DNA of 40,442 nt from Actinomycetota bacterium (GCA_050692695.1 JBOGVI010000149.1:1-40442); one strand, 5' to 3'. Positions 7,364 through 29,535 are shown, counted from the first letter of the stretch. Program-made: numbers and translations. Notes: generated from the letters alone by a model not told the origin.

Positions 7364-9385
7364 TTGTCGAGCATCGCCGAGGAGGTCGCACAGCTTCGCG
7401 GGACCAAGTCGGCGACCTTCAGGGACCTCCTGACCCGCCCCCCGTTCCCCCGGTTGCTGGCGGCGCAGACGGTCTCGTCGCTGGGCGACTGGGTCGGGTT
7501 CGTGGCCGTCGCGTCGCTCGTGGAGCGGCTGGGGGGAACCGTCGGCGCGTACGCGGTGGCCGGCGTGATGCTCGCCCGGATGCTTCCGTCGATCCTGTTC
7601 GGCCCGGTGGCCGGTGCCCTGGTCGACCGGTTCGATCGCAAGCGAATCATGATCACGGCCGACGTGACCCGGGGCGCGCTCTACGCCTCGATGCCGTTCC
7701 TGGGCAAGCTGTGGGCCATCTTCGCGGTGTCGTTCCTGATCGAGTCGCTCTCCCTGCTGTGGACGCCGGCCCGCGACGCCAGCCTGCCGAACCTCGTGCC
7801 CAGGCGACAGCTCGCCAACGCCAACTCGCTCGGACTTCTCTCGACCTACGGGACGCTCCCCCTGGGCGGGGCGATCTTCGCGTTCCTCGCGGGCACGTCG
7901 GGCCTGTTCCCGTACCTGAAGTTCCGACCCGAGTTCCTCGCGCTCTGGCTCGACGCCGGGACGTTCGGTTTCTCCGCCCTGATGATCAGCCGGATCCCTA
8001 TCCCCACCCCGCCCTCCAGGGCCGTGGGGAAGTTCGAGAGCTCCCATGTGTTGCGGGACATCGCCGAAGGGGTCCGGTTCCTCCGCCAGCATTCGCTCGC
8101 CTCGTCCATGACCGTGGGCATCGTCTCGGCGTTCAGCGCGGTCGGCGCCGTGCTCGCGCTGGGGCCGATCTTCGCCAGGACGACGCTCGCCTCGGGTGCG
8201 GCGGGCTGGGGACTCCTGGTCACGTCGTTCGGCATCGGCATGGGGATCGGGATGGCGTCCGTGAACAAGCTCGTCGAGTACGCCGAGCGCGACCGTCTGC
8301 TCGTGTGGTCGCTGGTCGCGGCGGCCGCGACCCTCTTGGTGCTTGCGGCGATGCCCACCATCGCGGGGGCGGCCGCGCTGACGGTGGTGCTGGGCTTTTT
8401 CTGTGGGGGGGCGTGGGTCTCGGGCTACGTCTTGCTCCAGGAGAACGTGGCCGACGAGTACCGCGGCCGCACGTTCGGGTCCCTCACCGTCCTGTCGCGG
8501 TTCGGCCTGTTCCTTTCGCTGGCGGGGTTCCCCGCCCTTGCCGGGCTGATCGGGTTGCACCATTTCGTGAGGGTGGGCGGGGTTGAGGTCGACCTGTCCG
8601 GTACCAGGGTCGCGCTGATGGTCGCCGGCCTGGGCGTCATCGTGGCCGCCGACGTGACCCGCAGGGGACTGAAGCGGTTCCGGGTGAGCCGGCCCAAGCC
8701 GCTCGCCCTCGTCCCCAAGCTGAAGCGGCCTCCCCGGCGGGGCATCTTCGTGGTGTTCGAGGGAGTCGAGGGCTCCGGCAAGGGCACGCAGATCCGCCTG
8801 GCCAAGGAGTGGCTGGAATCGGAGGGGACCGACGCCCTCGTGACGCGCGAGCCCGGCGGCACACAGGTGGGCGAGCGGCTGCGGGACCTCCTGCTCGGCC
8901 ACGACATCGGGCACATCGAGCCCCGGACCGAGGCCCTGCTGTTCGCGGCGAGCCGGGCCCAGCACGTGGCAAGCGTGATCCGGCCTGCGCTCGCCGAGGG
9001 CAAGGTGGTGATCTGCGACCGGTACATCGACTCCTCCGTCGCGTACCAGGGATGGGGCCGAGGGCTCGGCGAACAGGACGTCCTCACGCTCAACGTGTGG
9101 GCCACCCAGGGTCTGTTCCCGGACCTGGTGCTCCTCCTGCACGTGGAGCCGGAGGCTGGCCTGCTGCGCTCGTTGGAAGAGCCCGATCGGATCGAGATGG
9201 AGTCGGGGGACTTCCATGCCAAGGTGTCCAACGCCTACCTCAAGATCGCCGAGGAGCATCCGGAGCGGTTCGTGGTGATCGACTCGAGCGGCCCGCCACA
9301 AGAGGTGCACGAACGGGTGACGGAGGCCATGCGTCGCGTGCTGAAGGAGCGCGAGGAGGATGAGCGGGACGGTCGGGATGCGTGA
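7364..9385 (+). CDS. tmk: Bifunctional MFS transporter / thymidylate (dTMP) kinase fusion
   Basis: 673-aa ORF with a TTG start directly abutting the topA TAG; SD GGAGGGG at 7352-7358. The N-terminal ~450 aa are an MFS_3-like 12-TM protein (LAAQTVSSLGDW, GALVDRFDRKR). The C-terminal ~210 aa are Tmk (FVVFEGVEGSGKGTQ P-loop, TREPGGT, DRYIDSSVAYQG). Confidence 0.9.
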   Translation: MSSIAEEVAQLRGTKSATFRDLLTRPPFPRLLAAQTVSSLGDWVGFVAVASLVERLGGTVGAYAVAGVMLARMLPSILFGPVAGALVDRFDRKRIMITADVTRGALYASMPFLGKLWAIFAVSFLIESLSLLWTPARDASLPNLVPRRQLANANSLGLLSTYGTLPLGGAIFAFLAGTSGLFPYLKFRPEFLALWLDAGTFGFSALMISRIPIPTPPSRAVGKFESSHVLRDIAEGVRFLRQHSLASSMTVGIVSAFSAVGAVLALGPIFARTTLASGAAGWGLLVTSFGIGMGIGMASVNKLVEYAERDRLLVWSLVAAAATLLVLAAMPTIAGAAALTVVLGFFCGGAWVSGYVLLQENVADEYRGRTFGSLTVLSRFGLFLSLAGFPALAGLIGLHHFVRVGGVEVDLSGTRVALMVAGLGVIVAADVTRRGLKRFRVSRPKPLALVPKLKRPPRRGIFVVFEGVEGSGKGTQIRLAKEWLESEGTDALVTREPGGTQVGERLRDLLLGHDIGHIEPRTEALLFAASRAQHVASVIRPALAEGKVVICDRYIDSSVAYQGWGRGLGEQDVLTLNVWATQGLFPDLVLLLHVEPEAGLLRSLEEPDRIEMESGDFHAKVSNAYLKIAEEHPERFVVIDSSGPPQEVHERVTEAMRRVLKEREEDERDGRDA

Positions 9386-10584: not shown

Positions 10585-10956
10585 ATGACGGTCCGAGTGC
10601 TCATCGTGGACGACCAGGGGCCGTTCCGGCAGGCTGCCCGGATGGTCGTGGAGGCCACCGACGGGTTCGAGGTCGTCGGGGAATCCGAGACCGGGGAGGA
10701 CTCGATCGGGAAAGCTCGCGAGCTCCACCCCGACCTGGTGCTGATGGACGTGAACCTGCCCGGGATCAACGGGCTGGACGCCACCAGGAAGATCCTGGAG
10801 GACTCGGGCAACCGGGTCGTGGTCCTGCTCCTCTCCACGTACGAGGAAGAGGAGTACGCGCCTCGGGCCGCCGAGTGCGGCGCCGCCGCCTACATCCCGA
10901 AGGCGGTGTTCGGGTCCGACCGGCTCGAGGCGGCCTGGGCCGCCGCCACCGGCTAG
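10585..10956 (+). CDS. Single-domain response regulator (receiver only, NarL-like subfamily)
   Basis: 123-aa ORF with SD GAAGGAG 10 nt upstream. Complete receiver residues are present: VDD, LMDVNLPG (phospho-Asp), LLST, IPK. No output domain precedes the stop. Confidence 0.85.
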   Translation: MTVRVLIVDDQGPFRQAARMVVEATDGFEVVGESETGEDSIGKARELHPDLVLMDVNLPGINGLDATRKILEDSGNRVVVLLLSTYEEEEYAPRAAECGAAAYIPKAVFGSDRLEAAWAAATG

Positions 10957-11799: not shown

Positions 11800-13911
11800 T
11801 CATTCCGCGGCCGGGCGCGGCCGGGCCCCCTCACGCGCGAGAACGCGACCCCGGATCGTCGTGCCGTGCCCCGGCTCCGATCGGATCTCGACCGTCCCGC
11901 CGATCGCCTCGACGCGGTCCGCCATGCTCTGGAGCCCGGTGCCGCTCGTCTCGGCCTCCGGGTCGAACCCCACGCCGTCGTCGGTCACGTCGAACCGCAG
12001 CTGCCCATCCTCCGCCGCCAGCCGCACCGACACCCGTGATGCCCTCGCGTACTTGGCCACGTTCGTGAGCGCCTCGAGCACGCAGAAGTAGACCGTCGAC
12101 TCCACGTCCTGCGGGTACCGGCCGACGCCGTGGCCATCGATCTCGACCGGCACGTTCGCCTTCCGTGCCTGGCCCTCGAGCGCGGCGACGAGACCCTTGT
12201 CGGAGAGCAGGGGCGGATAGATGCCCCGGGCCAGATCCCGGAGGTTCTGCATGGCGTCGTTCGCTTCGGCCTTGAGCTCGGCGGCCAGCGCCGCGGCCCG
12301 GTCCGGGTCCTTCCGCGTCAGCTGTTCCAGCAGCCGGAGCTTCACGGAGAGCGCTACGAGCTGCTGCTGCGCACCGTCGTGGATGTCGCGCTCGATCCGG
12401 CGGCGCTCCTGGTCTTGCGCCGCCACGATCCGCTGGCGCGACGCGCGGAGCTCTTCGATCAGTCGTACGTTGCGAAGCACCAGGCCGGCCTGGGAGGCGA
12501 GGTCCCGGACCAGCGCCTCCTTGGATGGGTTCATCGGATCGTTCGCGGGCATCGTCACCGAGACGGCGCCGAGGAGCTCGCCCTGGTGGCGTACGGGGAA
12601 CGCCGACGTCTGCGGCCCCAGGTCGGGCAGTTCCTCCCCCTGCATCCGGAGGGGCTTCCCGGCCCTCCCGCCGTCGGGCCAGGCGGCGGCGGGACGCAGT
12701 TCGGGGCCCACCCGGAGCCACACGATGGCCTCACTCGCCCCGGACCCCGCGGCCACGATCTGCGCCATCCGGGGCAGGACGTCGTCGGTCGAGTACGTCT
12801 CGGCCACGCGCTCGGAGAACTCGGAGAGGACCTCGTAGGGGGAGGCGCGCTCCCCGTAGACGAGCCGGTCCGCCAGGCGGCGGGCGGCCCGGCGGACCGG
12901 GTTGAAGGCGAGGGCCACGATGACCGCCGCGGCCAGCGAGAACAGGTCCGCCGACGTCCCGGCGGTCCCCCGGACGGCGAGGGGCACGGCGATGACGACG
13001 CCGAGGTAGACCAGCGCGATGAACGTCGCGAGCACGCCGGCCACGACCGTCTTCTTGACCACGATGTCGAGGTCGTACAGGCGATACCGGAACATCGCGA
13101 CGCCCGCCGCGAGCGGGATGCCGAGTCCGACCGTCAGGAAGAACAGGTAGAAGGAGATCTCGTTCAGGGGAGAGGTCTCGCCGAGGCCGATCCCCGTGAC
13201 GAGGAGGGCGAGGAAGAAGAACACGGCGATCGCTGCCCCGTAGGCGACCCACCGGATCTGTTGCCGCTCCTCCCGCCGTGCCCGTCGGAACCGGACGAAG
13301 AGCGCGGCCGCCGAGGCGAGCGTGGCCCCGATCGTTCCGAACGCAGCAACCGTGAGCACCGGACCGAGGAAGCGCTGGAGGCCCTCGATCGCGAGGGGGT
13401 TCGGGATGCTGACGCTGCCCACATCGAGCATCCGGGTCCTCACCCCGTCGGCCACGAGCCCGAGCCCGCCGAACCCGAACAGCGCCCAGGCCACGGGTCG
13501 CCACCGAGGCGAGGGGAGCGTCCCCGAGGGGAAGAGCAGGAACAGCAGGGGGATCGGCACGACGGCGAAGAAGATGGAGGTATCGGACACGAGCGCGGCG
13601 GCCCGGCCGAACGGCAGCGACCTGAGGGACGTCTCGAACGTGTAGGTGACGTACTCGGAGGCGAATCCATTGAGCAGGAAGGCCATCCCCGCGAGCATGA
13701 AGAGCCACCCGACCGGGTTGCGCGGGAATCGGGACGCGATCACCGCTCCGACCGTCGCGTACCCGGTCAGGATCACGACGGCGATCGGGATGAAGGGGAC
13801 GTCCTCCGAGAAGCTGCCGTTGCGGACGGTCAGGACCATCGTGACCGCGAGCAGGGCCAGCGTCGCGCCCCACAGGATCCAGGGTGTCCGGGAGCGGACT
13901 CCTCGACTCAT
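11800..13911 (-). CDS. Membrane sensor histidine kinase (multi-TM sensor, GAF-like linker, HisKA_3, HATPase_c)
   Basis: 703-aa ORF. About 8-10 TM helices at the N-terminus. H-box ERRRIERDIHDGAQQQLVAL. N box EALTNVAKYA. G boxes DDGVGFD and GTGLQSMADRVEAIGG. Confidence 0.9.
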   Translation of the reverse strand: MSRGVRSRTPWILWGATLALLAVTMVLTVRNGSFSEDVPFIPIAVVILTGYATVGAVIASRFPRNPVGWLFMLAGMAFLLNGFASEYVTYTFETSLRSLPFGRAAALVSDTSIFFAVVPIPLLFLLFPSGTLPSPRWRPVAWALFGFGGLGLVADGVRTRMLDVGSVSIPNPLAIEGLQRFLGPVLTVAAFGTIGATLASAAALFVRFRRARREERQQIRWVAYGAAIAVFFFLALLVTGIGLGETSPLNEISFYLFFLTVGLGIPLAAGVAMFRYRLYDLDIVVKKTVVAGVLATFIALVYLGVVIAVPLAVRGTAGTSADLFSLAAAVIVALAFNPVRRAARRLADRLVYGERASPYEVLSEFSERVAETYSTDDVLPRMAQIVAAGSGASEAIVWLRVGPELRPAAAWPDGGRAGKPLRMQGEELPDLGPQTSAFPVRHQGELLGAVSVTMPANDPMNPSKEALVRDLASQAGLVLRNVRLIEELRASRQRIVAAQDQERRRIERDIHDGAQQQLVALSVKLRLLEQLTRKDPDRAAALAAELKAEANDAMQNLRDLARGIYPPLLSDKGLVAALEGQARKANVPVEIDGHGVGRYPQDVESTVYFCVLEALTNVAKYARASRVSVRLAAEDGQLRFDVTDDGVGFDPEAETSGTGLQSMADRVEAIGGTVEIRSEPGHGTTIRGRVLAREGARPRPAAE

Positions 13912-14492
13912 CGACCGTCCACCCCGACGGTCGCCGGCACGCGGCCGGTGACCGTCGTGCCTCGGTTCGGGGCGCTTCGGATCTGGAGGGTTCCACCGAT
14001 TGCGTCGAGCCGGTCGGCCATGCCCTGGAGGCCGGTGCCGTAGGCGAGGGCAGAAGGGTCGAACCCCACTCCGTCGTCGGAGACCTCGAAGCTCAGACCC
14101 TGGTCGCCGGCCGAGAGCCGGACGGTCGCTTGCGTCGCGTTCGCGTACTTCGCCACGTTCTGAAGGGCCTCGAGGGTACAGAAGTAGACCGCCGTCTCCA
14201 CCTCCTGTGGGAACCGGCCCACGCCATCGACGAGCATGTCGGTTGGTACAGGAGACTTGCGAGCCTGGCTCTCCAGGGCAGCCGCCAATTCTCTGTCTGC
14301 CAGCAGTGGCGGGTAGATGCCGCGGGCCAGGTCACGGAGGTTCTCCAGGGCCTCGTCGGTCTCGCCCTGGAGCCGGCCCAGCATCTCCTTGGCCTTCGCC
14401 GGATCGCGGTCGGCCATCTGCTCGGCCAGTCGGAGTCTCACCGCCAACGCCACGAGCTGCTGCTGAGCCCCGTCGTGAAGGTTCCGCCCCAT
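13908..14492 (-). CDS. Sensorless truncated histidine kinase paralogue (partial H-box + HATPase_c only); possibly a gene remnant
   Basis: Only the last 194 codons of the 312-aa ORF look like protein: MGRNLHDGAQQQLVALAVRLRL...EALQNVAKYA...DDGVGFD...GTGLQGMADRLDAIGG. This part is about two-thirds identical by eye to the C-terminus of the downstream kinase. The upstream in-frame part is Arg/Pro/Gly junk. Its stop overlaps the next start as ATGA (13908-13911). Confidence 0.6.
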   Translation of the reverse strand: MGRNLHDGAQQQLVALAVRLRLAEQMADRDPAKAKEMLGRLQGETDEALENLRDLARGIYPPLLADRELAAALESQARKSPVPTDMLVDGVGRFPQEVETAVYFCTLEALQNVAKYANATQATVRLSAGDQGLSFEVSDDGVGFDPSALAYGTGLQGMADRLDAIGGTLQIRSAPNRGTTVTGRVPATVGVDGR

Positions 14493-14686
14493 GCCCGGAT
14501 TCTCGCCCTCTGCCCCTCGGCGCGGAAGGGTGCCGGCCGAACGGCCGGCGGGAGCTCCACCACCACGCCGGGGGTGCAAGCACCACCGGCTCGTCGGGCG
14601 GCTCTCTCCTCGAACCGTGGTGGCCGCCGGATGGGAAGGGGCCGGCCCGCGGCCTAGCGTCGGGGTCTCAGCGAGAGGAGGTTCCG

Positions 14687-15097
14687 ATGATCCGAAGGAT
14701 CCTGGTGGGGACCGATACCTCTGCCTCCGCGGATCTCGCGGTCGAGGCTGCGGCCGACCTGGCCCAAACCCACCAGGCCGAGCTCCTCGTGCTCTACGTG
14801 CGATCCGACCCCCCGATGCGTGACGCGGCCGACCCTCGCAAGCCACCGGACCCGGATCGCTACCTGTCCCGGATGACCGAGCGGTTCCCGACTCTTCGGA
14901 TCCGGAGTTGGAGCGAGCCCGGCGACCCGGCCGAACGGATCTGCGACGTGGCCGCCGAGGAGCGTGTGGACACGATCGTGGTCGGGAACCGAGGCGTGCA
15001 CGGCCCGAGGTGGCGGGTCCGCGAGAGCGTGCCGACCATGGTCGTGCGCCACGCCCCGTGCTCGGTCTTCATCGTGGACACTCGGGTGGCGCAGTGA
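14687..15097 (+). CDS. Universal stress protein (UspA family)
   Basis: I used the ATG at 14687 (SD GAGAGGAGG at 14673-14681) inside the 365-aa track ORF. MIRRILVGTDTSASADLAVEAA...DTIVVGNRGVHG...VVRHAPCSVFIV is the typical USP fold signature. Confidence 0.85.
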   Translation: MIRRILVGTDTSASADLAVEAAADLAQTHQAELLVLYVRSDPPMRDAADPRKPPDPDRYLSRMTERFPTLRIRSWSEPGDPAERICDVAAEERVDTIVVGNRGVHGPRWRVRESVPTMVVRHAPCSVFIVDTRVAQ

Positions 15098-15120: not shown

Positions 15121-15798
15121 TCAGCCCGCGGCGGGGTGCTCCGTCCCGCGGAAGAACGCGAGCACGGCCATCACCCGGCGGTGGACGTCGGTCTCCTCGG
15201 TCAGACCGAGCTTGTGGAACAGGGAGTTGATGTGCTTTTCTACGGCGCGCTCCGTGAGGAACAAGGACTTGGCGATAGCGGCGTTGTTCTTCCCCTGCGC
15301 CATGTGCCCGAGGACCTCCCGCTCCCGCTCGGTGAGCTGCGCGAGCGGCGAGTGGGCCATCCGGTCCTTCCGTGCGACCAGGGCCTCGACCACCTTGGGG
15401 TCGAGCACGGAGCCGCCCTTCGCCACCTCGGTGATGGCCCGGACCAGCTCGTCGAGATCGGCCACCCGTTCCTTGAGCAGGTACCCGAGGCCCGCGGCAC
15501 CGTCTTTCAGGAGGTCGTAGGCGTAGTCCTCCTCGGCGTACTGGGAGAGCACGACCACGCCGATCTCGGGATGCCCGGCCCGGATCCTTCGGGCCGCGTC
15601 GATCCCCTCCGTAGTGTTCGTGGGCGGCATGCGGATGTCGGTGAGGACGGCCTCGGGCGCGTGCTGTTCCACCGCCGCCAGCAGCTCGTCCAGGCTCGCG
15701 ACGGTGGCCACGAGCTGGATCTGGTCCGACGTCGTGAGCAGGGCGGCCGTCCCCTCGCGGACGAGATAGTTATCCTCCGCGAAGACCACGCGCACCAT
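15121..15798 (-). CDS. NarL/LuxR-family response regulator (REC + GerE HTH)
   Basis: The real start is MVRVVFAEDNYLVREG at 15798, and the 616-aa track ORF is an artefactual extension. Receiver residues are present (ED, TDIRMPP, LS, LLK). HTH is LTEREREVLGHMAQGKNNAAIAKSLFLTERAVEKHINSLFHKLG. Confidence 0.9.
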   Translation of the reverse strand: MVRVVFAEDNYLVREGTAALLTTSDQIQLVATVASLDELLAAVEQHAPEAVLTDIRMPPTNTTEGIDAARRIRAGHPEIGVVVLSQYAEEDYAYDLLKDGAAGLGYLLKERVADLDELVRAITEVAKGGSVLDPKVVEALVARKDRMAHSPLAQLTEREREVLGHMAQGKNNAAIAKSLFLTERAVEKHINSLFHKLGLTEETDVHRRVMAVLAFFRGTEHPAAG

Positions 15799-15843
15799 GG
15801 GCGGATGGTACACGCGCCCGAGACGTAGTTGGAGGGATGAGGG
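15799..15843. promoter_or_regulatory. 45-bp divergent control region between the two paralogous response-regulator genes
   Basis: Only 45 bp separate the two start codons. It contains the SD GGAGGG for the + gene. Both promoters must overlap here or lie inside the partner's coding sequence. Confidence 0.4.
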
Positions 15844-17118
15844 ATGAGCATCCGGGTCGTCCTGGGCGAGGACAACGTGCTGGTCCGTGAGGGGGTCCGG
15901 GCCCTCCTCGACTCGCATCAGGACATCGAGGTGGTTGGCGTCGCCGCCGACGCGCCCGCCCTGCTTGTCGCGGCCGAGGAGCACCGTCCCGACGTCGTGG
16001 TCACCGACATCAAGATGCCCCCAAACTTCCAGCTCGAGGGGATCGACTGCGCGCACGACCTTCGCTCGCGGCACCCCGGGATCGGCGTTGTGGTCCTCTC
16101 CTCCCACGACGACGAGGCATACGCCATCGCGCTCCTGGGCAAGGGCCAGAGTGGCCTGGCCTACCTGCTCAAGGACCGGATCGCCCAGGGCGACGAGCTG
16201 GTTCGAGCCATCCGCGAGGTCGCCGCGGGCGGGTCGGTCGTGGATCCTTTGATCGCGGAGCGCCTGTCCGGCCGCCGAGAGACCGAGGAGGACCGAGAGG
16301 TCCTCGACCTCATGGCCAAGGGTCATGGCTATGCGGAGATGGCCGAGGCCCTCGGTACCACCCAGGAGGCGGTGGACCGCCGGGTCACCGACCTGTTCCG
16401 GAGGCTCGCCGCGTTGGCCGAGGGCGGGGGGAGCGCCGCCGTCGACGAGATGAAGCGACTGCACGCGGCCGTCGTGGAGAAGGAGTCCTCGGCCCGCACC
16501 CTCCGTTCCTTCGTGCCCCAGCAGTTCGCGGCGAAGCTGGCTGCCGGCGGGGCGGCCGCCGAGCAACAGGAGGCCGAGGCCACCGTCCTGTTCTCCGACA
16601 TCCGCGGCTTCTCCGCTCTCGCCGAGCAGCTGTCGGCTCGGGAGATCGCCGACATCCTGGCCCGCCATCTCTCGGCCATGGCGGAGATCGTCGTGGCGCA
16701 CGGCGGCATGCTCGACAAGTTCGCGGGCGACGCGGTGATGGCGGTGTTCGGTGTCCCGGACCCCGCGCCGGATCACGCCGAGCGGGCCCTCCGGTGCGCC
16801 ATCGCCATGCAGGCTCGGCAGGCGGAGCTCAACCGGGACGGGTGGACGGAGACGCTGAGCGAGCTGGGGATGGGGATCGGCGTGAACACCGGCACCGTTG
16901 TGGCCGGGACCGTTGGCGGCGGCGGCCGGCTCGAGTACACGGTCGTGGGGGACGCCGTGAACATCGCGCAACGGCTCCAGAGCGAGGCCGACGGCGGCGA
17001 GATCATCGCCTCGGCGTCCACGGTGGCGGCGGCCCCGAGCATCGCGGCCGAGCCGATCGGGCCGCGCCCGGTGAAGGGGCGGAAGGATCCGGTCGACGTT
17101 TTCCGCGTAGTGAAATGA
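15844..17118 (+). CDS. Response regulator fused to a LuxR-type HTH and a class III adenylate/guanylate cyclase (REC-GerE-CYC)
   Basis: 424-aa uninterrupted ORF. REC: GEDNVLVREG, TDIKMPP, VVLSS, YLLK. HTH: REVLDLMAKGHGYAEMAEALGTTQEAVDRRVTDLFRRL. Cyclase: ATVLFSDIRGFS, LDKFAGDAVMAVFG, GIGVNTGTVVAG, VVGDAVNIAQRL. Confidence 0.9.
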   Translation: MSIRVVLGEDNVLVREGVRALLDSHQDIEVVGVAADAPALLVAAEEHRPDVVVTDIKMPPNFQLEGIDCAHDLRSRHPGIGVVVLSSHDDEAYAIALLGKGQSGLAYLLKDRIAQGDELVRAIREVAAGGSVVDPLIAERLSGRRETEEDREVLDLMAKGHGYAEMAEALGTTQEAVDRRVTDLFRRLAALAEGGGSAAVDEMKRLHAAVVEKESSARTLRSFVPQQFAAKLAAGGAAAEQQEAEATVLFSDIRGFSALAEQLSAREIADILARHLSAMAEIVVAHGGMLDKFAGDAVMAVFGVPDPAPDHAERALRCAIAMQARQAELNRDGWTETLSELGMGIGVNTGTVVAGTVGGGGRLEYTVVGDAVNIAQRLQSEADGGEIIASASTVAAAPSIAAEPIGPRPVKGRKDPVDVFRVVK

Positions 17119-17309
17119 CCAGGCCGAAAAGCGTGTTCCGTCGCGTGGAGCGGTGGTCGGTGGGGTTGGCCATGGGCGTTCTGGCCTTCGTCCTGGAGCG
17201 AGCCGTGGTCCGCTCGATCCGAAAGGGCGAGACCAAACCGAAGCCTCCCCAGCCGACCGCGATGAAGGGCACCGGTTCCGAGATCTCGCCTGCCGGGCCG
17301 GGAGACTAG
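17115..17309 (+). CDS. Hypothetical 64-aa single-pass membrane protein, translationally coupled to the cyclase gene
   Basis: The ATG at 17115 overlaps the cyclase TGA as ATGA. Sequence is MTRPKSVFRRVERWSVGLAMGVLAFVLERAVV, with one hydrophobic helix and then a Lys/Pro-rich tail. No recognisable family. Confidence 0.4.
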   Translation: MTRPKSVFRRVERWSVGLAMGVLAFVLERAVVRSIRKGETKPKPPQPTAMKGTGSEISPAGPGD

Positions 17310-17316
17310 CCCGGGT

Positions 17317-19413
17317 TTAGTTGCGGCGGAGCAGGTCCACGATCAGGCCCACCGTGAGCAGCCCGGCGAGGGCGCCGAACCCGACCGGGATCCAGTCGGA
17401 GACGCGCTCCGCGGCCACGGTGAGGCCGGTGGCGAGCACCGCGGCTCCCGCGGTAAGTCCCAGGGCCAATCGCCGCCCGGCCCGCCGGATCGTGTTCTCC
17501 AGCGACGCCGCCCGGAAGTTCACCTCGAGCTTCTGCCCGGGCCTCGCCCCGATCAGCCGCTCCACGGCCTCCACGATCCGCAGGAACCGGACCTTGATCC
17601 GCTGCGACTGGTAGAAGAGAGCTTTCGGGTCCAGCTTCGACCCCATTCCCGAGAGCACCTGCCGCATCAGGAACTTCCCGGCCACGTCGAACGGGTCGAG
17701 GTCCGGGTCCAGCTCGGCGGTAGCAAGCTGCATCTGCGCGAGCGCCTTGCCGGTCAACGCGAGCGACGCCGGCAGCGGCACGTCGTGACGGATGGCGATC
17801 TCCGTCATCTCCTGGAGGATTGGGCCGAGCCGGATGTCGGACAGGGAGGCCGTGCGGTACTTCGCCATCATCTCGCCGATCTCCGAGCTGAACCTGTCCG
17901 CGTCGAGATCGCTCCGGTCGATCGCCCCGGCCAGCATCAGCGTGACGTCGGTGAGGAACCCCACGTCCTCCTGCCAGAAGGCCATCAACAGGAGCATCAA
18001 CTCCTCGCGCATGTCGGCGCCGACCTCGCCCACCATGCCGAAGTCCAGGAAGTAGATGCGGTCGTTCCACCACATGAGGTTCCCCGGATGCGGGTCGGCG
18101 TGGAAGAACCCGTGCACGAGGATCTGCTTGTAGTAGCTCTCGAGCAGCTGGCGAGCCGCGTCCTTGCGCTCCGGTCCCTCCGGCGCCTTCGAGATCGGTC
18201 CGCCTTGGATCTCCTGCATCACCAGCAGGCGCGACGTCGACAGGTCGTCGTGGACGCCCGGCACCGACAGGCGCGGGTAGTCCCGGAGGACGTGGCTCAT
18301 CCGCTCGATGTTCGAGGCCTCCTGGCGGAAGTCGAGCTCGCGGTGGAGCGACGAGGACAGGTGCTCGAACACCGCGCCCATGTCGATCACCTGCTTCAGG
18401 CCTGGTCGGACGGAGACCTTCTCCGCGAACAGTTCGAGGAGGGCGAGGTCCTGCTCGATCTCCTCCCGGGCGGTGGGGCGCTGGACCTTGGCGACCACGC
18501 GCTCGCCGCCCGTCAGCGTGGCCCGGTGGACCTGGGCGATCGTCCCAGCGGCCATGGGCCGAGGGTCGATGGATTCGAACACGTCCTCCCAAGGCACGCC
18601 GAGCTCTTGCTCCATCACGTGAACCACTTCCTCTTCGGTGAGCGGCGGCACGTTGTCCTGGAGCGTCGCGAGCTCCTCGATGAACTCCGGGGGAAGGAGG
18701 TCGGGACGGGTCGAGAGCACCTGGCCGAGCTTGGCGAACGTCGGACCCAGCTCCTCCAGGGCGGAGCGGAGGTGCTTGGCCTGCTTGCGACGGCCGGTAG
18801 TTATCTCCTCGTCCGCCTTGCCGAACAGGGCCTTCACCCCGTGCTTCGTCATCACGGCCGCGATGCGCGCGCCTCGCGCCGCGAGGCGCGGCTCCGTCTC
18901 GGGGACCTCGCCCTCGCGGATGACCCGCGTGGTCCGAACGACCTGCGCCGTCACGCCGTCGGGCGAGAAGGTGTTGACGATGATCACCGTGCAGGTTGCG
19001 TTGTGCGAGATCCGGTTCGGGACGTTGCCGAGCAGGAACTCTTTCCGTCCGGCCATGCCCGCGTTGCCGACGACGAGGACGTCCGCTCGCTCTTGCTCCG
19101 ACGCTCGGACGATGGCCATGGCCGGATCGTCGTCCACGAGCACCAGGGACCGGGCCCGGTCCCCGGCCAGCTCGAACGCGAGCTTCTGGAGCTCGTCGGA
19201 GGCGGCTCCGGCCCGGGTACCCTCGGCCGCCCCGTACTCGGTTACGGCGGGGCTGGTGGGGACGACCACCTGGACCAGGAACAGCTCGGCGGCGTATCGG
19301 TCGGCGAGCGCCGCGGCCCATCCCACCGCGCGATCGGCGGTCTCGGAGCGGTCGGTGGCCACCATGACCCGAGAGACGCCGGGCGACGTGCGAGATGTGT
19401 TCTGGGCTGGCAT
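17317..19413 (-). CDS. USP domain fused to an ABC1/UbiB (AarF-type) atypical protein kinase with a C-terminal membrane anchor
   Basis: 698-aa ORF. The N-terminal ~150 aa are USP (RVMVATDRSETADRAVGWAA...VLVVGNAGMAGRKEFLLGNV...CTVIIV). Next comes ABC1 (LGPTFAKLGQVLSTRPDLLPPEFIEEL, AAGTIAQVHRA, HADPHPGNL, LDFGMVG). Two TM helices lie at the C-terminus. Confidence 0.9.
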   Translation of the reverse strand: MPAQNTSRTSPGVSRVMVATDRSETADRAVGWAAALADRYAAELFLVQVVVPTSPAVTEYGAAEGTRAGAASDELQKLAFELAGDRARSLVLVDDDPAMAIVRASEQERADVLVVGNAGMAGRKEFLLGNVPNRISHNATCTVIIVNTFSPDGVTAQVVRTTRVIREGEVPETEPRLAARGARIAAVMTKHGVKALFGKADEEITTGRRKQAKHLRSALEELGPTFAKLGQVLSTRPDLLPPEFIEELATLQDNVPPLTEEEVVHVMEQELGVPWEDVFESIDPRPMAAGTIAQVHRATLTGGERVVAKVQRPTAREEIEQDLALLELFAEKVSVRPGLKQVIDMGAVFEHLSSSLHRELDFRQEASNIERMSHVLRDYPRLSVPGVHDDLSTSRLLVMQEIQGGPISKAPEGPERKDAARQLLESYYKQILVHGFFHADPHPGNLMWWNDRIYFLDFGMVGEVGADMREELMLLLMAFWQEDVGFLTDVTLMLAGAIDRSDLDADRFSSEIGEMMAKYRTASLSDIRLGPILQEMTEIAIRHDVPLPASLALTGKALAQMQLATAELDPDLDPFDVAGKFLMRQVLSGMGSKLDPKALFYQSQRIKVRFLRIVEAVERLIGARPGQKLEVNFRAASLENTIRRAGRRLALGLTAGAAVLATGLTVAAERVSDWIPVGFGALAGLLTVGLIVDLLRRN

Positions 19414-27235: not shown

Positions 27236-27406
27236 TGTGGCCTCCTCTTGCTCTCTCGCCCCAGCCACTCGATCGATGGGTGGGAGAGGAGGCCCCCTGG
27301 CGCCCGCAGCTACACGGGCTAGGTCCGCCAATGAGCGTGAGCGGAACAGGTGCACCCAGGGTGGCATGGCTCGTTCGTCCGGTCAATCGGACGCGGCACG
27401 ATCCTG

Positions 27407-27433
27407 GGAACCCCGTTCACATCTCGGCCGGTC
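27407..27433 (+). promoter_or_regulatory. Candidate ECF-type promoter (GGAAC ... GTC) upstream of the sigma factor gene
   Basis: GGAAC at 27407-27411 and cgGTCc at 27429-27434, about 12-20 nt before the candidate GTG starts. This is the pattern expected for autoregulated ECF sigma genes, but the spacer is slightly long. Confidence 0.25.
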
Positions 27434-27445
27434 CTTCCTCCTGTA

Positions 27446-27931
27446 GTGGAGAGGGTGCGAGAGGCGCCGGCGGGCCTGCGCCGAGAGGACGATCTCGAGC
27501 GCCTGTACCGGGAGCAGGGGGGCCGGATGTGGCGCGCGGTGCTTGCGTTCGCCGGCGACCCGGAGGTTGCGAGCGATGCCGTGGCCGAGGCCTTCGCCCA
27601 GGCGCTGAGGAGGGGTGACCAGATCCGTGACCCGGAGCGGTGGCTGTGGCGGGCGGCGTTCCGGATCGCGGCCGGGGATCTGAAGGAGCGCGGGCGTCGA
27701 GTGCCGGCGGTCGTGGAGGAGTCCTACGAGATGGAGGAGCCGGCCCGCGAGCTGGTGGCGGCGCTCGCGAAGCTCTCGGACAAGCAGCGGTCGGCGGTGG
27801 TGCTGCACCACGCCGCTGGGTACCCGGTGAGCGAGGTCGCGGAGATCATCGGATCGACTTCGGCGGCCGTCCGGGTGCATCTGATGCGGGCGCGGCGACG
27901 CCTTCGCGAGCTGCTGGAGGACGAGGGATGA
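27446..27931 (+). CDS. ECF (group 4) RNA polymerase sigma-70 family factor
   Basis: Region 2 is LERLYREQGGRMWRAVLAFAGDPEVASDAVAEAF. Region 4 is LSDKQRSAVVLHHAAGYPVSEVAEIIGSTSAAVRVHLMRARRRL. The start is uncertain: GTG at 27446 or 27455, and the track ORF starts at GTG 27350. Confidence 0.8.
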   Translation: MERVREAPAGLRREDDLERLYREQGGRMWRAVLAFAGDPEVASDAVAEAFAQALRRGDQIRDPERWLWRAAFRIAAGDLKERGRRVPAVVEESYEMEEPARELVAALAKLSDKQRSAVVLHHAAGYPVSEVAEIIGSTSAAVRVHLMRARRRLRELLEDEG

Positions 27932-29535
27932 AGCTCGCGGAGCGCTTCGAGACGCTCGGCCGAACCCGAACGCCGGACCTCTGGCCCGAAGTGGTCCGCC
28001 GCGAACCGCGGCCACTCTCGCTTGAAGTGCAGCAGAGGCACCGGGCCCTGACCGCCGCCCTGGCCCTCGCGGTTGCCATGGCGGCGATCGGGCTTACCTT
28101 TCGCGCGTTCGTTGGGACCGGGGAGCGCAGCCCGGTCTCAACACAAGAGCCGGACATCTCTATCCCGCAGCTGTATCCACACGTGACGTCCACAGTCCGG
28201 GTTGGCTCGGAGGGTGGAGCGGTACTCTTCGCCTTCGACAGTGTGTGGGTCACGACACGCGATGACGTCGGGGCAGGATACGTGGTTCGCGTCGACCCAG
28301 CGACCAACGGTGTGGTCGCTCGCGTCCCAGTGGACGCGGTCCCGGGCTGGGAGGGCGGAGGCGGGGGTCTGGCCGCAGGAGCGGGCTCGATCTGGGTGAC
28401 CGGCGGGGGCCGGTTCTCCGGCGGTGCGTCCGGGGCCCTCCTGCACCGGATCGACGCTCGGTCGAACGATGTCCAGGCGACGATCGTGCTCGACCAAGGG
28501 CGGTATTCCCATGGACAGGACGTCACGGTCTCGGACGACGCGGTCTGGGTGGTCCTATCCGCAGACGATGGCGAGGGTGCCCGTGACTTCGTCGCGAAGG
28601 TCGCTCCGGCGACGAACGAGGTCGTCGCCAAGATCCCGCTCGAGCACCAGTGGGCTCATTGGATCGCAACCACAGGGGATCGTGTCGTCGTTCTCGAACA
28701 TCGAACGTTCGGCGAGGGGAACCGCGCGGGGGTCTTCACCACGATCGACGCCAGGACGAACGAGGTCGTCGCCAGCGTGGAGCCGGACCTGCACGGACCC
28801 GCGTGGGGACTGGCTCTATGGGGCGACCAGGTGTGGACTGACGCTGGGGGGTGGGAGCTCGCCGGTGTTGATCCGCTCACTGGCGATGCTGTGCCGTTCG
28901 ATACCGTGCTCGCGGTTTCCTTCGAGGGCTTGGCAGTCGGCGAAGGCGGCATCTGGTTCGTGGGATACAACTCCAACGCCAAGAACGAGCGACCCGTCAC
29001 CATCAACCGTCTGAACCCCAATACCAGAATGATCGACGTGTCGGTCGAGACTCCACTCACACGAGGAGGCTCGATCGCCGTGGGCGGCGGGGCGGTCTGG
29101 CACATGGGCTTGTACCCGGGCGATCTGACCCGCATCGACCTTGCTCCGCCCGCCCGGGAGAACGTCGACGGCCATGAGGCCGGCTTCGTCGCGCCGCTGG
29201 TCGCTCGGTTCATGCAGGCGCGAATCGAAGGGTTCGGTGCGGGCCAATACGTGACCGGTGGCGGCCTCGATGCATGGACCTCCGGCCTGGAGCCCCTCTA
29301 CAGCCCGAAGGGGGTCCGTTACGAGAGCTTCGCCATCGTCTTCGTCGACGACCTGGGGAACGGGACCTACGAGGTCGGCACCCGGATGTTCGGGGCTCTC
29401 ATGGACGGCGAAGACGAGTGGTTCACCGAGCCCCTCTTCGAGGAAACACTGTTCGTGGGCCCGGGAGAAGGCCTGGATGGCGAACAGCACGCTCTCCTCG
29501 TCACGGGTGGGCGGTCCGGCTTGGTGGGCCCGTGA
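27928..29535 (+). CDS. Single-pass membrane protein with an extracytoplasmic 7-bladed beta-propeller; putative anti-sigma or sigma-associated sensor
   Basis: The ATG at 27928 overlaps the sigma stop as ATGA. There is a short cytoplasmic N-terminus (PDLWPEVVRREP), a TM helix (ALTAALALAVAMAAIGLTF) and seven repeats of the form xxVWVxx...RIDxxTNxVVAxI. A ~140-aa C-terminal domain follows. Confidence 0.7.
   Translation: MKLAERFETLGRTRTPDLWPEVVRREPRPLSLEVQQRHRALTAALALAVAMAAIGLTFRAFVGTGERSPVSTQEPDISIPQLYPHVTSTVRVGSEGGAVLFAFDSVWVTTRDDVGAGYVVRVDPATNGVVARVPVDAVPGWEGGGGGLAAGAGSIWVTGGGRFSGGASGALLHRIDARSNDVQATIVLDQGRYSHGQDVTVSDDAVWVVLSADDGEGARDFVAKVAPATNEVVAKIPLEHQWAHWIATTGDRVVVLEHRTFGEGNRAGVFTTIDARTNEVVASVEPDLHGPAWGLALWGDQVWTDAGGWELAGVDPLTGDAVPFDTVLAVSFEGLAVGEGGIWFVGYNSNAKNERPVTINRLNPNTRMIDVSVETPLTRGGSIAVGGGAVWHMGLYPGDLTRIDLAPPARENVDGHEAGFVAPLVARFMQARIEGFGAGQYVTGGGLDAWTSGLEPLYSPKGVRYESFAIVFVDDLGNGTYEVGTRMFGALMDGEDEWFTEPLFEETLFVGPGEGLDGEQHALLVTGGRSGLVGP

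What the first reader, a model, noticed from the sequence alone, without database searches (positions are those of the whole stretch)
15121..17118. A complete NarL-type response regulator with a class III cyclase appended (REC-LuxR_HTH-CYC), head-to-head with its unfused paralogue
A single uninterrupted 424-codon ORF reads as three domains:
- a receiver with all phospho-acceptor residues
- a full GerE/LuxR HTH (REVLDLMAKGHGYAEMAEALGTTQEAVDRRVTDLFRRL)
- a class III cyclase domain that keeps both metal-binding Asp residues (LFSDIRGFS, KFAGDAVMAVFG) and the Asn/Arg pair (GDAVNIAQRL), so it looks catalytically competent

The architectures I recall are REC-cyclase and cyclase-ATPase-LuxR (M. tuberculosis Rv0386 type). 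I do not recall a DNA-binding response regulator carrying a cyclase after its HTH.

Its start codon is 45 bp from that of a divergent canonical NarL regulator. The REC and linker of that regulator are roughly half identical by eye (EDNxLVREG, TDIxMPP, EGID, HPxIGVVVLS, GLxYLLK, DELVRAIxEVAxGGSVxDP). The pair therefore looks like a duplication in which one copy gained the cyclase. The two probably compete for the same kinase and/or the same operator in the 45-bp spacer.
Basis: partly seen in the sequence, partly recalled or inferred. Interest (0 to 1): 0.75.

Follow-up and report, generated by a model that had tools for sequence, protein, structure and literature searches.

The report
Response regulator with adenylyl cyclase output
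This gene encodes a two-component response regulator whose output is a cAMP-making enzyme, joined through a degraded remnant of a DNA-binding domain that probably now serves as a mechanical linker; the family is common in uncultured Actinomycetota but I found no description of it.

Summary
The 424-codon ORF (15844-17118, +) is real and lies 45 bp head-to-head with a canonical NarL-type regulator (15121-15798, -; 49% identical over residues 3-188). The receiver and the class III cyclase are intact. All phospho-site and catalytic residues are 100% conserved in 71 species, and Lys292/Thr366 predict ATP as substrate.

The middle module is not a full GerE HTH. It is clearly homologous to one (HHalign E 1e-57) and keeps the three-helix core. 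It fails Pfam GerE (14.4 vs 23.5 bits), lacks helix alpha-10, and is acidic (-3.5 vs +0.6 in the NarL neighbours). In the larger sister clade its recognition-helix surface is not conserved. After it come a helix of exactly 26 residues in 71/71 members and a cyclase-transducer element.

Most likely mechanism: a HisKA_3 kinase phosphorylates Asp55, the signal passes through the vestigial HTH, coiled coil and CTE, and cAMP synthesis changes.

The architecture is not rare: over 6000 clusters, at least 591 genome hits, and cultured genera. In the sister clade the gene sits beside a cNMP-binding protein in 46/56 loci. The NarL/fused split is an ancient paralogy. The spacer's only conserved block resembles a -10 box. 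Verdict: new variant of a known kind, of moderate interest.

The parts
15844..17118 (+). Gene for the REC / vestigial-HTH / signalling helix-CTE / class III cyclase protein (424 aa)
   Evidence: ORF. Pfam REC and Guanylate_cyc. Identical to an NCBI MAG Actinomycetota protein on a 40442-bp contig.
15844..16224 (+). NarL-family receiver domain (residues 1-127); phospho-acceptor Asp55
   Evidence: Pfam 7e-16. NCBIfam NarL-type models align over residues 3-188. E9/D10/D55/S86/Y107/K110 are 100% conserved. AF2 alpha/beta fold.
16246..16422 (+). Linker helix plus GerE-derived three-helix HTH-like module (residues 135-193), degenerate and without alpha-10
   Evidence: GerE scores 14.4 bits, below the cut-off. 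HHalign to NarL neighbours gives 100% probability through residue 190. Foldseek returns LuxR/GerE DNA-binding domains at 0.8-1.0 A over 38-41 columns. Net charge is -3.5 against +0.6.
16435..16542 (+). Signalling helix (residues 198-223) and short cyclase-transducer-element helix (226-233)
   Evidence: AF2 helices. A199 to P225 is exactly 26 residues in 71/71 members. The model superimposes on the linker-CTE of 6fht, 5o5k and bPAC. The CTE concept is from PMC5995499.
16564..17109 (+). Class III cyclase catalytic domain (residues 241-422); predicted adenylyl cyclase with a Lys292/Thr366 pair
   Evidence: Pfam 2e-27. PDB best matches are Cya2 and CyaB at 1e-34 and 5e-32. Foldseek to CyaB gives TM 0.90. 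Catalytic residues are invariant.
15121..15798 (-). Divergent canonical NarL-type response regulator (225 aa), an ancient paralogue
   Evidence: Pfam REC plus GerE at 6e-15. 49% identical to the fused protein. Head-to-head in 20/20 clade-A loci. Its recognition helix is 100% conserved in 44 orthologues.
15799..15843 (.). 45-bp divergent spacer. It contains a -10-like TACCAT (15805-15810, minus strand) 6 nt upstream of the NarL ATG, and a GGAGG (15831-15835) 8 nt upstream of the cyclase-gene ATG.
   Evidence: Sequence. Comparison of 24 spacers. No inverted repeat and no sigma-70 consensus.
11800..13911 (-). Membrane GAF-HisKA_3-HATPase_c histidine kinase, candidate phosphodonor
   Evidence: Pfam. 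Orthologue of the upstream kinase in L001, L002 and L004.
13908..14522 (-). Sensor-less HisKA_3 plus HATPase_c kinase core; a truncated second kinase or a free-standing core
   Evidence: Pfam. 61-62% identical to the C-terminal ~190 aa of both L001 kinases.
14690..15097 (+). Single-domain universal stress protein, a conserved neighbour in clade A
   Evidence: tblastn synteny. PDB USP matches.
17115..17309 (+). 64-aa ORF whose start overlaps the cyclase-gene stop (ATGA); one hydrophobic stretch
   Evidence: Sequence. A called gene at the same position in L003, and small ORFs at the operon end in L001, L002 and L004. No family match.
17317..19413 (-). Usp-ABC1/UbiB-type kinase fusion, a conserved flanking gene in clade A
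   Evidence: Pfam. Synteny.

Best explanation
The gene encodes an enzymatic response regulator that converts a two-component phosphorylation signal into cAMP.

Proposed mechanism, with shown and inferred steps marked:
1. A HisKA_3 histidine kinase phosphorylates Asp55 of a NarL-family receiver. Candidates in this window are the GAF kinase at 11800-13911 and possibly the kinase core at 13908-14522; in most relatives a kinase gene lies directly downstream. The partnership is inferred.
2. The former GerE/LuxR DNA-binding domain has lost helix alpha-10 and its basic character (shown). It now acts mainly as a rigid three-helix adaptor, possibly latching onto the receiver as in inactive NarL (inferred).
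3. It passes the change to a fixed-length 26-residue helix that pairs with its partner as a coiled coil, and then through a cyclase-transducer element. The fixed length and the helices are shown; the dimer is inferred.
4. This repositions the two catalytic domains of an obligate homodimeric class III cyclase, which makes cAMP from ATP (substrate pair Lys292/Thr366). The residues are shown; activity and the sign of regulation are inferred.

The protein is one arm of a branched module. The other arm is the divergent, canonical NarL-type transcription factor. In the sister clade the cAMP is probably read by an adjacent cNMP-binding protein.
For: - Domains and residues. REC and cyclase residues are 100% conserved in 71 species; K292 is 95% and T366 100% conserved in the window's clade.
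- Homology of residues 2-190 to the NarL neighbours: HHalign probability 100%, E 1e-57, ending before alpha-10.
- The tri-helical GerE core fold is retained: Foldseek top hits are all LuxR-type DNA-binding domains, at 0.8-1.0 A over 38-41 columns and about 4.8 A once alpha-10 is included.
- Degeneration of the HTH: GerE scores 14.4 bits against 57.3 in the paralogue, and reaches E<=0.01 in 7/71 members. Net charge is -3.5 and -2.7 in the two fused clades against +0.6 and +0.3 in the NarL neighbours. The NarL neighbours' recognition helix is 100% conserved. In clade B the equivalent positions 178-183 are variable and small or acidic.
- Signalling helix and CTE: helices 198-223 and 226-233. The length is exactly 26 aa in 71/71 members, and the REEQGE..LSRLLPGG block is ~100% conserved in clade B. 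The model superimposes on the linker-CTE of PaaC, Cya and bPAC. The CTE mechanism is described in PMC5995499.
- Genomic coupling: a HisKA_3 kinase lies directly downstream in most clade-A loci, and a kinase is present in clade-B operons. A cNMP-binding protein is in 46/56 clade-B loci and is divergent within 1.3 kb upstream in 36/55.
Against: - No biochemical data exist. Neither phosphotransfer nor the sign of regulation (activation or inhibition) can be derived from sequence.
- The linker region of the monomer model has low confidence (pLDDT 53-60), and no dimer model could be made.
- In the window's own clade the recognition helix is conserved (D178 and T182 100%, R179 75%, R180 65%). It resembles the neighbour's E-K-H, so residual DNA binding is not excluded.
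Confidence: 0.68

Rival explanations
1. Bifunctional regulator. The HTH still binds DNA, at the same operator as the NarL paralogue. HTH dimerisation on DNA assembles the cyclase dimer, so the protein is both a transcription factor and a cyclase and competes with its paralogue.
For: - The tri-helical GerE core is retained.
- Sub-threshold Sigma70_r4_2 and HTH_28 hits occur.
- In clade A the recognition helix is conserved and chemically similar to the neighbour's (E178-K-H against D178-R-R).
- The genes are head-to-head in 20/20 clade-A loci.
Against: - GerE is below threshold and alpha-10, the DNA-bound dimerisation helix of NarL/DosR-type domains, is absent.
- R175, 100% conserved in the neighbours, is Glu in the fused protein, and N182 is Thr.
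- The module has a net charge of -3.5.
- Clade B keeps the module with a non-conserved, acidic helix surface, so the module is maintained without DNA-contact conservation.
- The spacer has no conserved palindrome. It varies from 32 to 80 bp, and its only conserved block fits a -10 box.
Confidence: 0.17
2. The cyclase makes a nucleotide other than cAMP (cGMP, or a mixed or pyrimidine product). Alternatively it is regulated mainly by bicarbonate or CO2, as other class IIIb enzymes are, with the receiver only modulating.
For: - The best sequence match is the guanylyl cyclase Cya2.
- The sister clade replaces the substrate Lys with Gln in 100% of 51 members. From my own knowledge, this recalls the Gln/Asn pair of Rv0386; PMC3466318 says only that Rv0386 has an alternative substrate-binding mechanism.
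- From my own knowledge, a Lys/Thr pair is typical of bicarbonate-responsive class IIIb enzymes such as CyaB and CyaC.
Against: - The window protein has Lys292, where Cya2 has Glu (alignment), and Thr366, as in the adenylyl cyclase CyaB of P. aeruginosa.
- The engineered E488K change converts Cya2 to an adenylyl cyclase (PMC5995499).
Confidence: 0.1
3. Artefactual fusion: a misassembly or a missed stop or frameshift joins a NarL regulator to a separate cyclase gene.
For: None found. One relative, P0011, carries an internal duplication that looks like an assembly error.
Against: - The same collinear ORF of about 425 aa occurs in over 6000 clusters and in 71 of the 80 best genome loci from independent projects, including isolate genomes.
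- GC3 is 0.91 across the whole ORF.
- The junction length is invariant.
Confidence: 0.01

Closest known systems
Receiver-cyclase response regulators and REC-containing class III adenylyl cyclases (for example cyanobacterial CyaC; from my own knowledge also Myxococcus CyaB and the REC-cyclase class in censuses of response-regulator outputs)
   Same: A phospho-accepting receiver is coupled to a class III catalytic domain in one polypeptide. The CyaC catalytic domain is a close structural match (1wc1, TM about 0.84). The output is a cyclic nucleotide rather than transcription.
   Different: Here the receiver is of the NarL subfamily. It is separated from the cyclase by a vestigial GerE-type three-helix module and a fixed 26-residue helix plus CTE. 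No solved chain combines REC and cyclase in this way, and I found no description in the searchable literature.
NarL/FixJ-family response regulators (NarL, DosR/DevR, VraR, LiaR, DesR), including the adjacent paralogue
   Same: Residues 2-190 are homologous along their whole length (HHalign E 1e-57; VraR and DevR matches). The phospho-site is the same, the HisKA_3 kinase context is the same, and the tri-helical HTH core is shared.
   Different: GerE is below the Pfam threshold. Helix alpha-10 is replaced by a long helix leading into a cyclase. The module is acidic, and key conserved recognition-helix residues of the neighbours (R175, N182) are changed.
Coiled-coil/CTE-coupled class III cyclases (bPAC and OaPAC, mycobacterial Cya/Rv1625c, phytochrome-cyclase PaaC)
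   Same: An N-terminal sensor connects through a dimeric helix and a short CTE helix to the cyclase core. The model aligns over 216-235 columns including that region. Length invariance of the helix fits register-dependent signalling, as discussed in PMC5995499.
   Different: The input is a phosphorylated receiver acting through an ex-DNA-binding domain, not a BLUF, membrane or phytochrome module. The motif RSFVP / SRLLPGG stands in place of the FGRY-type CTE motif quoted for Cya2.
M. tuberculosis Rv0386-type cyclases (cyclase - ATPase - LuxR HTH)
   Same: They combine a class III cyclase and a LuxR-type HTH in one actinobacterial protein (PMC3466318).
   Different: The domain order is opposite, there is no receiver, and an ATPase module lies between the domains. 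The LuxR domain there is recognised by standard domain models, since the census counts these proteins as LuxR regulators. The two are not homologous as architectures.

Membership tests
Response regulator receiver, NarL/FixJ subfamily | Receiver domain detected by profile | tested here: met
   Pfam Response_reg 58.8 bits against a cut-off of 30.2. 71/71 family members hit.
Response regulator receiver, NarL/FixJ subfamily | Acidic pair, phospho-acceptor Asp, Thr/Ser, aromatic switch residue and Lys | tested here: met
   E9/D10, D55, S86, Y107 and K110 are 100% conserved in 71 sequences.
Response regulator receiver, NarL/FixJ subfamily | C-terminal GerE/LuxR output domain at family threshold | tested here: not met
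   GerE scores 14.4 bits against a cut-off of 23.5. NCBIfam NarL-type equivalogs score 67-104 bits against cut-offs of 250-300.
Response regulator receiver, NarL/FixJ subfamily | HisKA_3-type kinase partner encoded nearby | tested here: met
   HisKA_3 kinase at 11800-13911 and a kinase core at 13908-14522. A kinase lies directly downstream in relatives. That HisKA_3 kinases pair with NarL-type regulators is established knowledge.
Response regulator receiver, NarL/FixJ subfamily | Phosphotransfer from a kinase to Asp55 | not testable with these tools
   Needs biochemistry.
GerE/LuxR_C-type HTH DNA-binding domain (PF00196) | Score at or above the Pfam gathering threshold | tested here: not met
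   14.4 bits, E 0.03, profile positions 4-46 of 57. 7/71 members reach E<=0.01.
GerE/LuxR_C-type HTH DNA-binding domain (PF00196) | Homology to bona fide members | tested here: met
   HHalign probability 100% through residue 190 against the NarL-neighbour family. BLASTP gives 49% identity through residue 188.
GerE/LuxR_C-type HTH DNA-binding domain (PF00196) | Tri-helical HTH core fold | tested here: met
   Foldseek top hits are VraR, LiaR, DosR, NarL, RcsB, GerE and ComA, with rmsd 0.8-1.0 A over 38-41 columns. E-values are weak (0.2-1.3) because the domain is small.
GerE/LuxR_C-type HTH DNA-binding domain (PF00196) | Fourth helix (alpha-10) that completes the domain and mediates dimerisation on DNA | tested here: not met
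   No sequence counterpart to NarL residues 200-225. Structural alignments that include it degrade to about 4.8 A. A GGGS loop and a 26-residue helix follow instead.
GerE/LuxR_C-type HTH DNA-binding domain (PF00196) | Conserved, basic DNA-contact surface on the recognition helix | tested here: inconclusive
   Clade A has E175, D178, R179, R180 and T182 conserved, but the module's net charge is -3.5. Clade B is variable and acidic. The NarL neighbours have R175, E178, K179, H180 and N182 at 100%.
GerE/LuxR_C-type HTH DNA-binding domain (PF00196) | Sequence-specific DNA binding | not testable with these tools
   Needs EMSA or DAP-seq.
Class III nucleotidyl cyclase (PF00211), subclass IIIb-like adenylyl cyclase | Catalytic domain detected by profile and fold | tested here: met
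   Pfam 96.2 bits against a cut-off of 21.9. Cya2 and CyaB match at 1e-34 and 5e-32. Foldseek to CyaB gives TM 0.90 and rmsd 1.7 A.
Class III nucleotidyl cyclase (PF00211), subclass IIIb-like adenylyl cyclase | Two metal-binding Asp residues and the transition-state Asn and Arg | tested here: met
   D252, D296, N373 and R377 are invariant in 71 sequences.
Class III nucleotidyl cyclase (PF00211), subclass IIIb-like adenylyl cyclase | Adenine-specifying Lys, with Thr in place of Asp as the second substrate residue (IIIb signature; definition from my own knowledge of Linder and Schultz's classification) | tested here: met
   K292 aligns with the CyaB DKF Lys and the Cya2 Glu. T366 aligns with the CyaB YTIIG Thr (alignments).
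Class III nucleotidyl cyclase (PF00211), subclass IIIb-like adenylyl cyclase | N-terminal cyclase-transducer element | tested here: inconclusive
   A helix-turn-short-helix lies at 198-233 with Pro225 invariant. Structural alignment extends into the linker-CTE of 6fht, 5o5k and bPAC. No CTE profile was available, and the motif differs from FGRY.
Class III nucleotidyl cyclase (PF00211), subclass IIIb-like adenylyl cyclase | Homodimeric active enzyme producing cAMP | not testable with these tools
   Needs an enzyme assay. No multimer prediction was available.
Rv0386-type cyclase-ATPase-LuxR proteins | N-terminal cyclase, central NTPase module, C-terminal LuxR HTH | tested here: not met
   The order here is REC, HTH-like, cyclase, with no ATPase domain.

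The most novel reading that the evidence does not exclude
In the window's clade the vestigial HTH still recognises DNA. It keeps a conserved D-R-R-V-T recognition helix similar to its neighbour's E-K-H-I-N. The protein would then be a DNA-tethered, phosphorylation-gated cyclase: operator-templated dimerisation of two HTH modules would zip the 26-residue helices and switch on cAMP synthesis at a specific chromosomal site. That would directly couple promoter occupancy to second-messenger production and compete with the paralogous NarL regulator.
Probability: 0.12. Interest if true: 0.8.

Novelty: new variant of a known kind. Interest (0 to 1): 0.5.

Why it matters
The family is a widespread route from two-component sensing to cAMP in Actinomycetota, and I found no description of it. 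It is especially common in soil and uncultured lineages, in Acidimicrobiia and in Streptosporangiales.

It is also a clean natural example of a DNA-binding domain being kept as an allosteric connector after losing its DNA-binding features. The fixed 26-residue helix makes it a good system for studying how receiver phosphorylation is transmitted to a dimeric enzyme through a coiled coil and CTE.

The conserved pairing suggests a testable three-tier pathway: kinase, then cyclase regulator, then cNMP receptor. The pairing is with a canonical NarL regulator in the window's clade, and with a cNMP-binding protein of unknown effector function plus an ABC/FtsX transporter in the sister clade.

On the practical side, current annotation (REC plus cyclase only) misses the middle module in every member examined.

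Tried and rejected
1. Pfam and NCBIfam on the whole protein and on the isolated middle segment. GerE is below threshold, so 'complete GerE HTH' was rejected.
2. My first argument, that the canonical recognition-helix Lys is replaced by Asp178, was weakened and dropped as decisive. The genuine NarL neighbours also carry an acidic residue there (E178), followed by K-H. The case against DNA binding therefore rests on net charge, loss of alpha-10, R175E and N182T, and clade-B variability.
3. Recent local duplication was rejected by NJ bootstrap. An earlier Biopython attempt timed out, and a first distance formula gave NaNs.
4. A shared operator in the spacer was not found. There is no inverted repeat and no sigma-70 consensus. 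Spacer length and sequence are variable except for a -10-like block.
5. The Usp neighbour as a cAMP receptor remains speculative. It matches Rv1636/MSMEG_3811 only weakly (E about 1e-6). [quoted passage not shown]
6. No cNMP-binding, ABC or FtsX homologue of the clade-B operon is in the window.
7. Five literature searches found no paper on a REC-HTH-cyclase architecture. The 2006 response-regulator census is not in the held library. The actinobacterial LuxR census text I searched mentions only the CHD+LuxR sub-family, restricted to Mycobacterium.
8. Assembly artefact was rejected.
9. No dimer prediction was possible with the tools, so coiled-coil pairing remains an inference.
Full report
**1. 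Observation**

The window is a 70% G+C contig. It is identical to an NCBI MAG contig of an Actinomycetota bacterium, since protein P0001 is 100% identical and its contig is 40442 bp long.

- ORF 15844..17118 (+) is 424 codons and uninterrupted. An in-frame stop lies two codons upstream, and GGAGG sits 8 nt before the ATG.
- On the other strand, 15121..15798 encodes a 225-aa regulator with Response_reg and GerE (6e-15).
- The two start codons are separated by exactly 45 bp.
- The two proteins are 49% identical over residues 3-188.
- GC3 of the long ORF is 0.91 throughout.

**2. Domains**

- Pfam gives Response_reg (residues 6-110, 7e-16) and Guanylate_cyc (241-415, 2e-27).
- NCBIfam full-length NarL-type models (MctR, MadR, NarL) align over residues 3-188/190 but score far below their cut-offs.
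- For the middle segment, GerE scores 14.4 bits (E 0.03; cut-off 23.5) and covers profile positions 4-46 of 57. The unfused paralogue scores 57.3 bits.
- A profile-profile comparison of the fused family with the NarL-neighbour family gives probability 100% and E 1e-57. It aligns fused 2-190 with NarL 1-199 of 225. Homology therefore runs through the recognition helix and stops before helix alpha-10.
- The full-length AlphaFold2 model (pLDDT 79.9) shows these elements:
  - a receiver (1-127)
  - helices 135-141, 148-158, 163-170 and 174-193
  - a GGGS loop
  - a long helix 198-223
  - a short helix 226-233
  - the cyclase (242-422)
- A model of residues 128-240 alone retrieves only LuxR/GerE-type DNA-binding domains from the PDB (VraR, LiaR, DosR, NarL, RcsB, GerE, ComA). 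Superpositions are 0.8-1.0 A over 38-41 columns, the three-helix core. They worsen to about 4.8 A over the 59-61 columns that include alpha-10.
- Conclusion: the module is GerE-derived with the core fold retained, but it is degenerate and lacks the fourth helix.

**3. Cyclase**

- The best solved relatives are Cya2 (2w01), its phytochrome fusion (6fht) and P. aeruginosa CyaB (3r5g). Foldseek to CyaB gives TM 0.90.
- From the printed alignments, Lys292 aligns with the CyaB Lys and the Cya2 Glu. Thr366 aligns with the CyaB Thr.
- D252, D296, N373 and R377 are invariant.
- By the accepted residue code for class III cyclases (my own knowledge), this predicts an ATP-specific, class IIIb-like homodimeric enzyme.
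- The model's long helix and short helix superimpose on the linker and cyclase-transducer element of structures crystallised with it. Alignments span 233-235 columns for 6fht, 216-223 for 5o5k and about 230 for bPAC, against about 185 for core-only structures.
- The role of the coiled coil and CTE in regulating the cyclase dimer is described in PMC5995499.

**4. The family**

- The word-indexed search returned 6685 clusters at E<=1e-10. The best 120 are all full-length (query coverage 96-100%), 415-442 aa apart from one 506-aa outlier (P0011), 71-100% identical, and annotated only as REC plus cyclase.
- The exhaustive search of 50%-identity representatives found only a few full-length clusters (73, 50, 47 and 43% identity). 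The family is therefore abundant but compact.
Of the best 80 loci, 71 encode one collinear match to residues about 3-422.
- The members fall into two clades.
  - Clade A is the window's clade: uncultured 'Actinomycetota/Actinomycetes' MAGs.
  - Clade B includes Acidimicrobiales, Microthrixaceae, Ilumatobacteraceae, Streptosporangiaceae, Nocardioidaceae, one Dormibacteria MAG, and the cultured Planotetraspora thailandica and Spongisporangium articulatum.
- Scanned one by one, 71/71 members have REC and cyclase. Only 7/71 reach GerE at E<=0.01.

**5. What is and is not conserved in the middle**

- Fold-determining positions of the HTH are conserved in both clades: L153/L154, A158, G160, A167, V181, L184/F185, L188/A189.
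- In clade B (51 species) the recognition-helix surface is variable and small or acidic: positions 178-180 are A/D/N, A/D/T and A/E/D, and position 182 is Glu in 94%.
- The genuine NarL neighbours (44 sequences from both clades) have a 100% conserved recognition helix: R175-A-V-E178-K179-H180-x-N182.
- The window's clade has E175-A-V-D178-R-R-V-T182, with D178 and T182 at 100%. This partly resembles the neighbours but reverses R175 and loses N182.
- Net charge of the module is -3.5 (clade A) and -2.7 (clade B), against +0.6 and +0.3 for the neighbours.
- The segment A199 to P225 is exactly 26 residues in 71/71 members. In clade B the spacings F185 to P225 (40 residues) and P225 to D252 (28 residues) are also invariant. 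The block R-E-E-Q-G-E-x-L-S-R-L-L-P-G-G is about 100% conserved in clade B.
- Hydrophobic residues at 203, 206, 210, 220 and 224 follow a heptad pattern.
- This pattern is what one expects of a rigid, register-sensitive signalling connector, not of a DNA-binding surface.

**6. Genomic context**

- The window is core actinobacterial chromosome: topA, an MFS-tmk fusion and holB (holB by synteny with L001/L002) upstream; ftsH, folE, folP, folK, panC, coaX and lysS, with tilS and hpt by synteny, downstream.
- In all 20 clade-A loci with enough sequence, a NarL gene lies head-to-head within 200 bp. The order is kinase(s), Usp, NarL(-), cyclase regulator(+), then Usp-ABC1(-).
- In most clade-A loci one or more HisKA_3 kinases directly follow the cyclase gene, for example at a distance of 9 bp or overlapping in L001 and L002.
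- The window and its closest relatives (L003, L004, L008, L025) lack that kinase. The window instead has a sensor-less HisKA_3/HATPase core at 13908-14522, next to the full GAF kinase at 11800-13911.
- In clade B the gene heads an operon with an ABC ATPase (35/44 loci), FtsX permeases and a HisKA_3 kinase. Often there is also a NarL regulator that is 55-63% identical to the window's neighbour.
- A ~340-aa protein with a C-terminal cyclic-nucleotide-binding domain is present in 46/56 clade-B loci. It is divergent within 1.3 kb upstream in 36/55. This is strong guilt-by-association evidence that the output is a cyclic nucleotide read locally.
- The window contains no such protein.

**7. Evolution**

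NJ trees of the REC plus HTH region, rooted with the window's two stand-alone receivers, give these bootstrap values:

| Grouping | Bootstrap |
|---|---|
| NarL neighbours of both clades together | 89% |
| Fused clade A | 96% |
| Fused clade B | 89% |
| Fused protein plus its own neighbour | 0% |
| All fused proteins together | 44% (unresolved) |

The fused/unfused split therefore predates the A/B radiation. It is an ancient paralogy, not a recent local duplication.

**8. The spacer**

- Across 24 clade-A loci the spacer is 32-80 bp and varies in sequence, except for one block abutting the NarL start: cat|GCGCGGATGGTACAC.
- On the NarL strand this block reads TA(C/G)(C/G)AT and ends 6 nt before the ATG. 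The invariant letters are T-A-N-N-N-T.
- By my own knowledge of actinobacterial promoters, this fits a -10 element for a leaderless mRNA.
- There is no inverted repeat in the spacer and no sigma-70 consensus.
- The cyclase gene has a Shine-Dalgarno sequence, so its promoter must overlap the NarL 5' region.
- I found nothing that looks like a shared operator.

**9. Mechanism**

Shown:
- an intact receiver, an intact cyclase active site and a retained tri-helical core
- loss of alpha-10 and of basic character
- an invariant helix length
- kinase and cNMP-receptor neighbours

Inferred:
- A HisKA_3 kinase phosphorylates Asp55.
- Receiver rearrangement or dimerisation, established for NarL-family regulators such as VraR, LiaR and DesR, is transmitted through the vestigial HTH to a parallel coiled coil and the CTE.
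- This sets the geometry of the catalytic homodimer and hence cAMP synthesis.
- The sign of regulation is unknown.

The main rival is a bifunctional DNA-binding cyclase. It is disfavoured but not excluded for clade A.

**10. Comparison and novelty**

- Receiver-cyclase regulators and CTE-coupled cyclases are known kinds. NarL regulators are textbook.
- What differs here is the embedded, decayed GerE module used as a connector, and the conserved branched module with a NarL paralogue (clade A) or with a CNB protein and an ABC/FtsX system (clade B).
- I found no paper describing this. The parts of the actinobacterial LuxR census that I searched mention cyclase-LuxR proteins only as the Mycobacterium-restricted CHD+LuxR group.
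- Thousands of members are already in databases under generic names. The protein is therefore a member of a large uncharacterised family, and the architecture is a new variant of a known kind rather than something categorically new.

Noticed in passing
window 13908-14522 (-): A sensor-less histidine-kinase core (HisKA_3 plus HATPase_c, about 200 aa) lies immediately upstream of the full GAF kinase and overlaps its start. It is 61-62% identical to the C-terminal ~190 aa of both kinases of L001. In L004 and L025 a full-length second kinase sits next to the first, upstream of Usp. It could be a truncated pseudogene or a free-standing constitutive kinase.
   Followed up: partly
window 17115-17309 (+): A 64-aa ORF with one hydrophobic stretch has a start codon that overlaps the cyclase-gene stop (ATGA), which suggests translational coupling. 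The same gene is called in L003, and 58-69-aa ORFs end the operon in L001, L002 and L004. It has no family match. A terminator-like hairpin at 17298-17314 overlaps its end.
   Followed up: partly
window 7364-9385 (+): A single 673-aa ORF fuses an MFS transporter (MFS_1/MFS_3) to thymidylate kinase. The same fusion is present in L002 (670 aa).
   Followed up: no
window 17317-19413 (-): A universal-stress-protein domain is fused to an ABC1/UbiB-type atypical kinase (698 aa). It is a conserved neighbour of the locus in nearly all clade-A genomes.
   Followed up: no
window 15805-15810 (-), and the spacers of L001-L028: A conserved TANNNT hexamer (TACCAT, TACGAT or TAGCAT) ends 6 nt upstream of the NarL ATG in about 24 genomes. 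It is a candidate -10 box for a leaderless transcript.
   Followed up: partly
clade-B loci L029-L087 (for example L045:5548-6843, L059:5548-6906): All 51 clade-B cyclases have Met-Gln in place of Asp-Lys at the substrate-specifying position (GTVMQFVGD). The other catalytic residues are intact. This may mean altered or relaxed nucleotide specificity.
   Followed up: no
L006:5806-6825 (-), with homologues in 46 of 56 clade-B loci: A ~340-aa protein has a C-terminal cyclic-nucleotide-binding domain (residues about 230-330). Its 230-residue N-terminal region matches no Pfam, NCBIfam or PDB family. It is usually divergent from the cyclase-regulator gene.
   Followed up: partly
protein P0126 (561 aa): One divergent family member carries an additional C-terminal receiver domain after the cyclase.
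   Followed up: no
protein P0011 (506 aa): This relative has an internal tandem duplication of receiver residues about 24-97. It is probably an assembly artefact in a 2.8-kb contig.
   Followed up: no
window 10585-10956 (+) and 37814-38200 (-): Two stand-alone receiver-domain proteins (123 and 128 aa) are present. The first is conserved next to holB in L001 and L002 (80% identical to the L001 copy).
   Followed up: no
window 27350-27931 (+) and 27640-29535 (+): A protein with sigma-70 region 4 domains typical of ECF sigma factors (Sigma70_r4_2 2e-13; the Sigma70_ECF model itself is just below its cut-off) is followed or overlapped by a 631-aa ORF with no Pfam match. The second ORF could be an anti-sigma factor or a spurious frame.
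   Followed up: no
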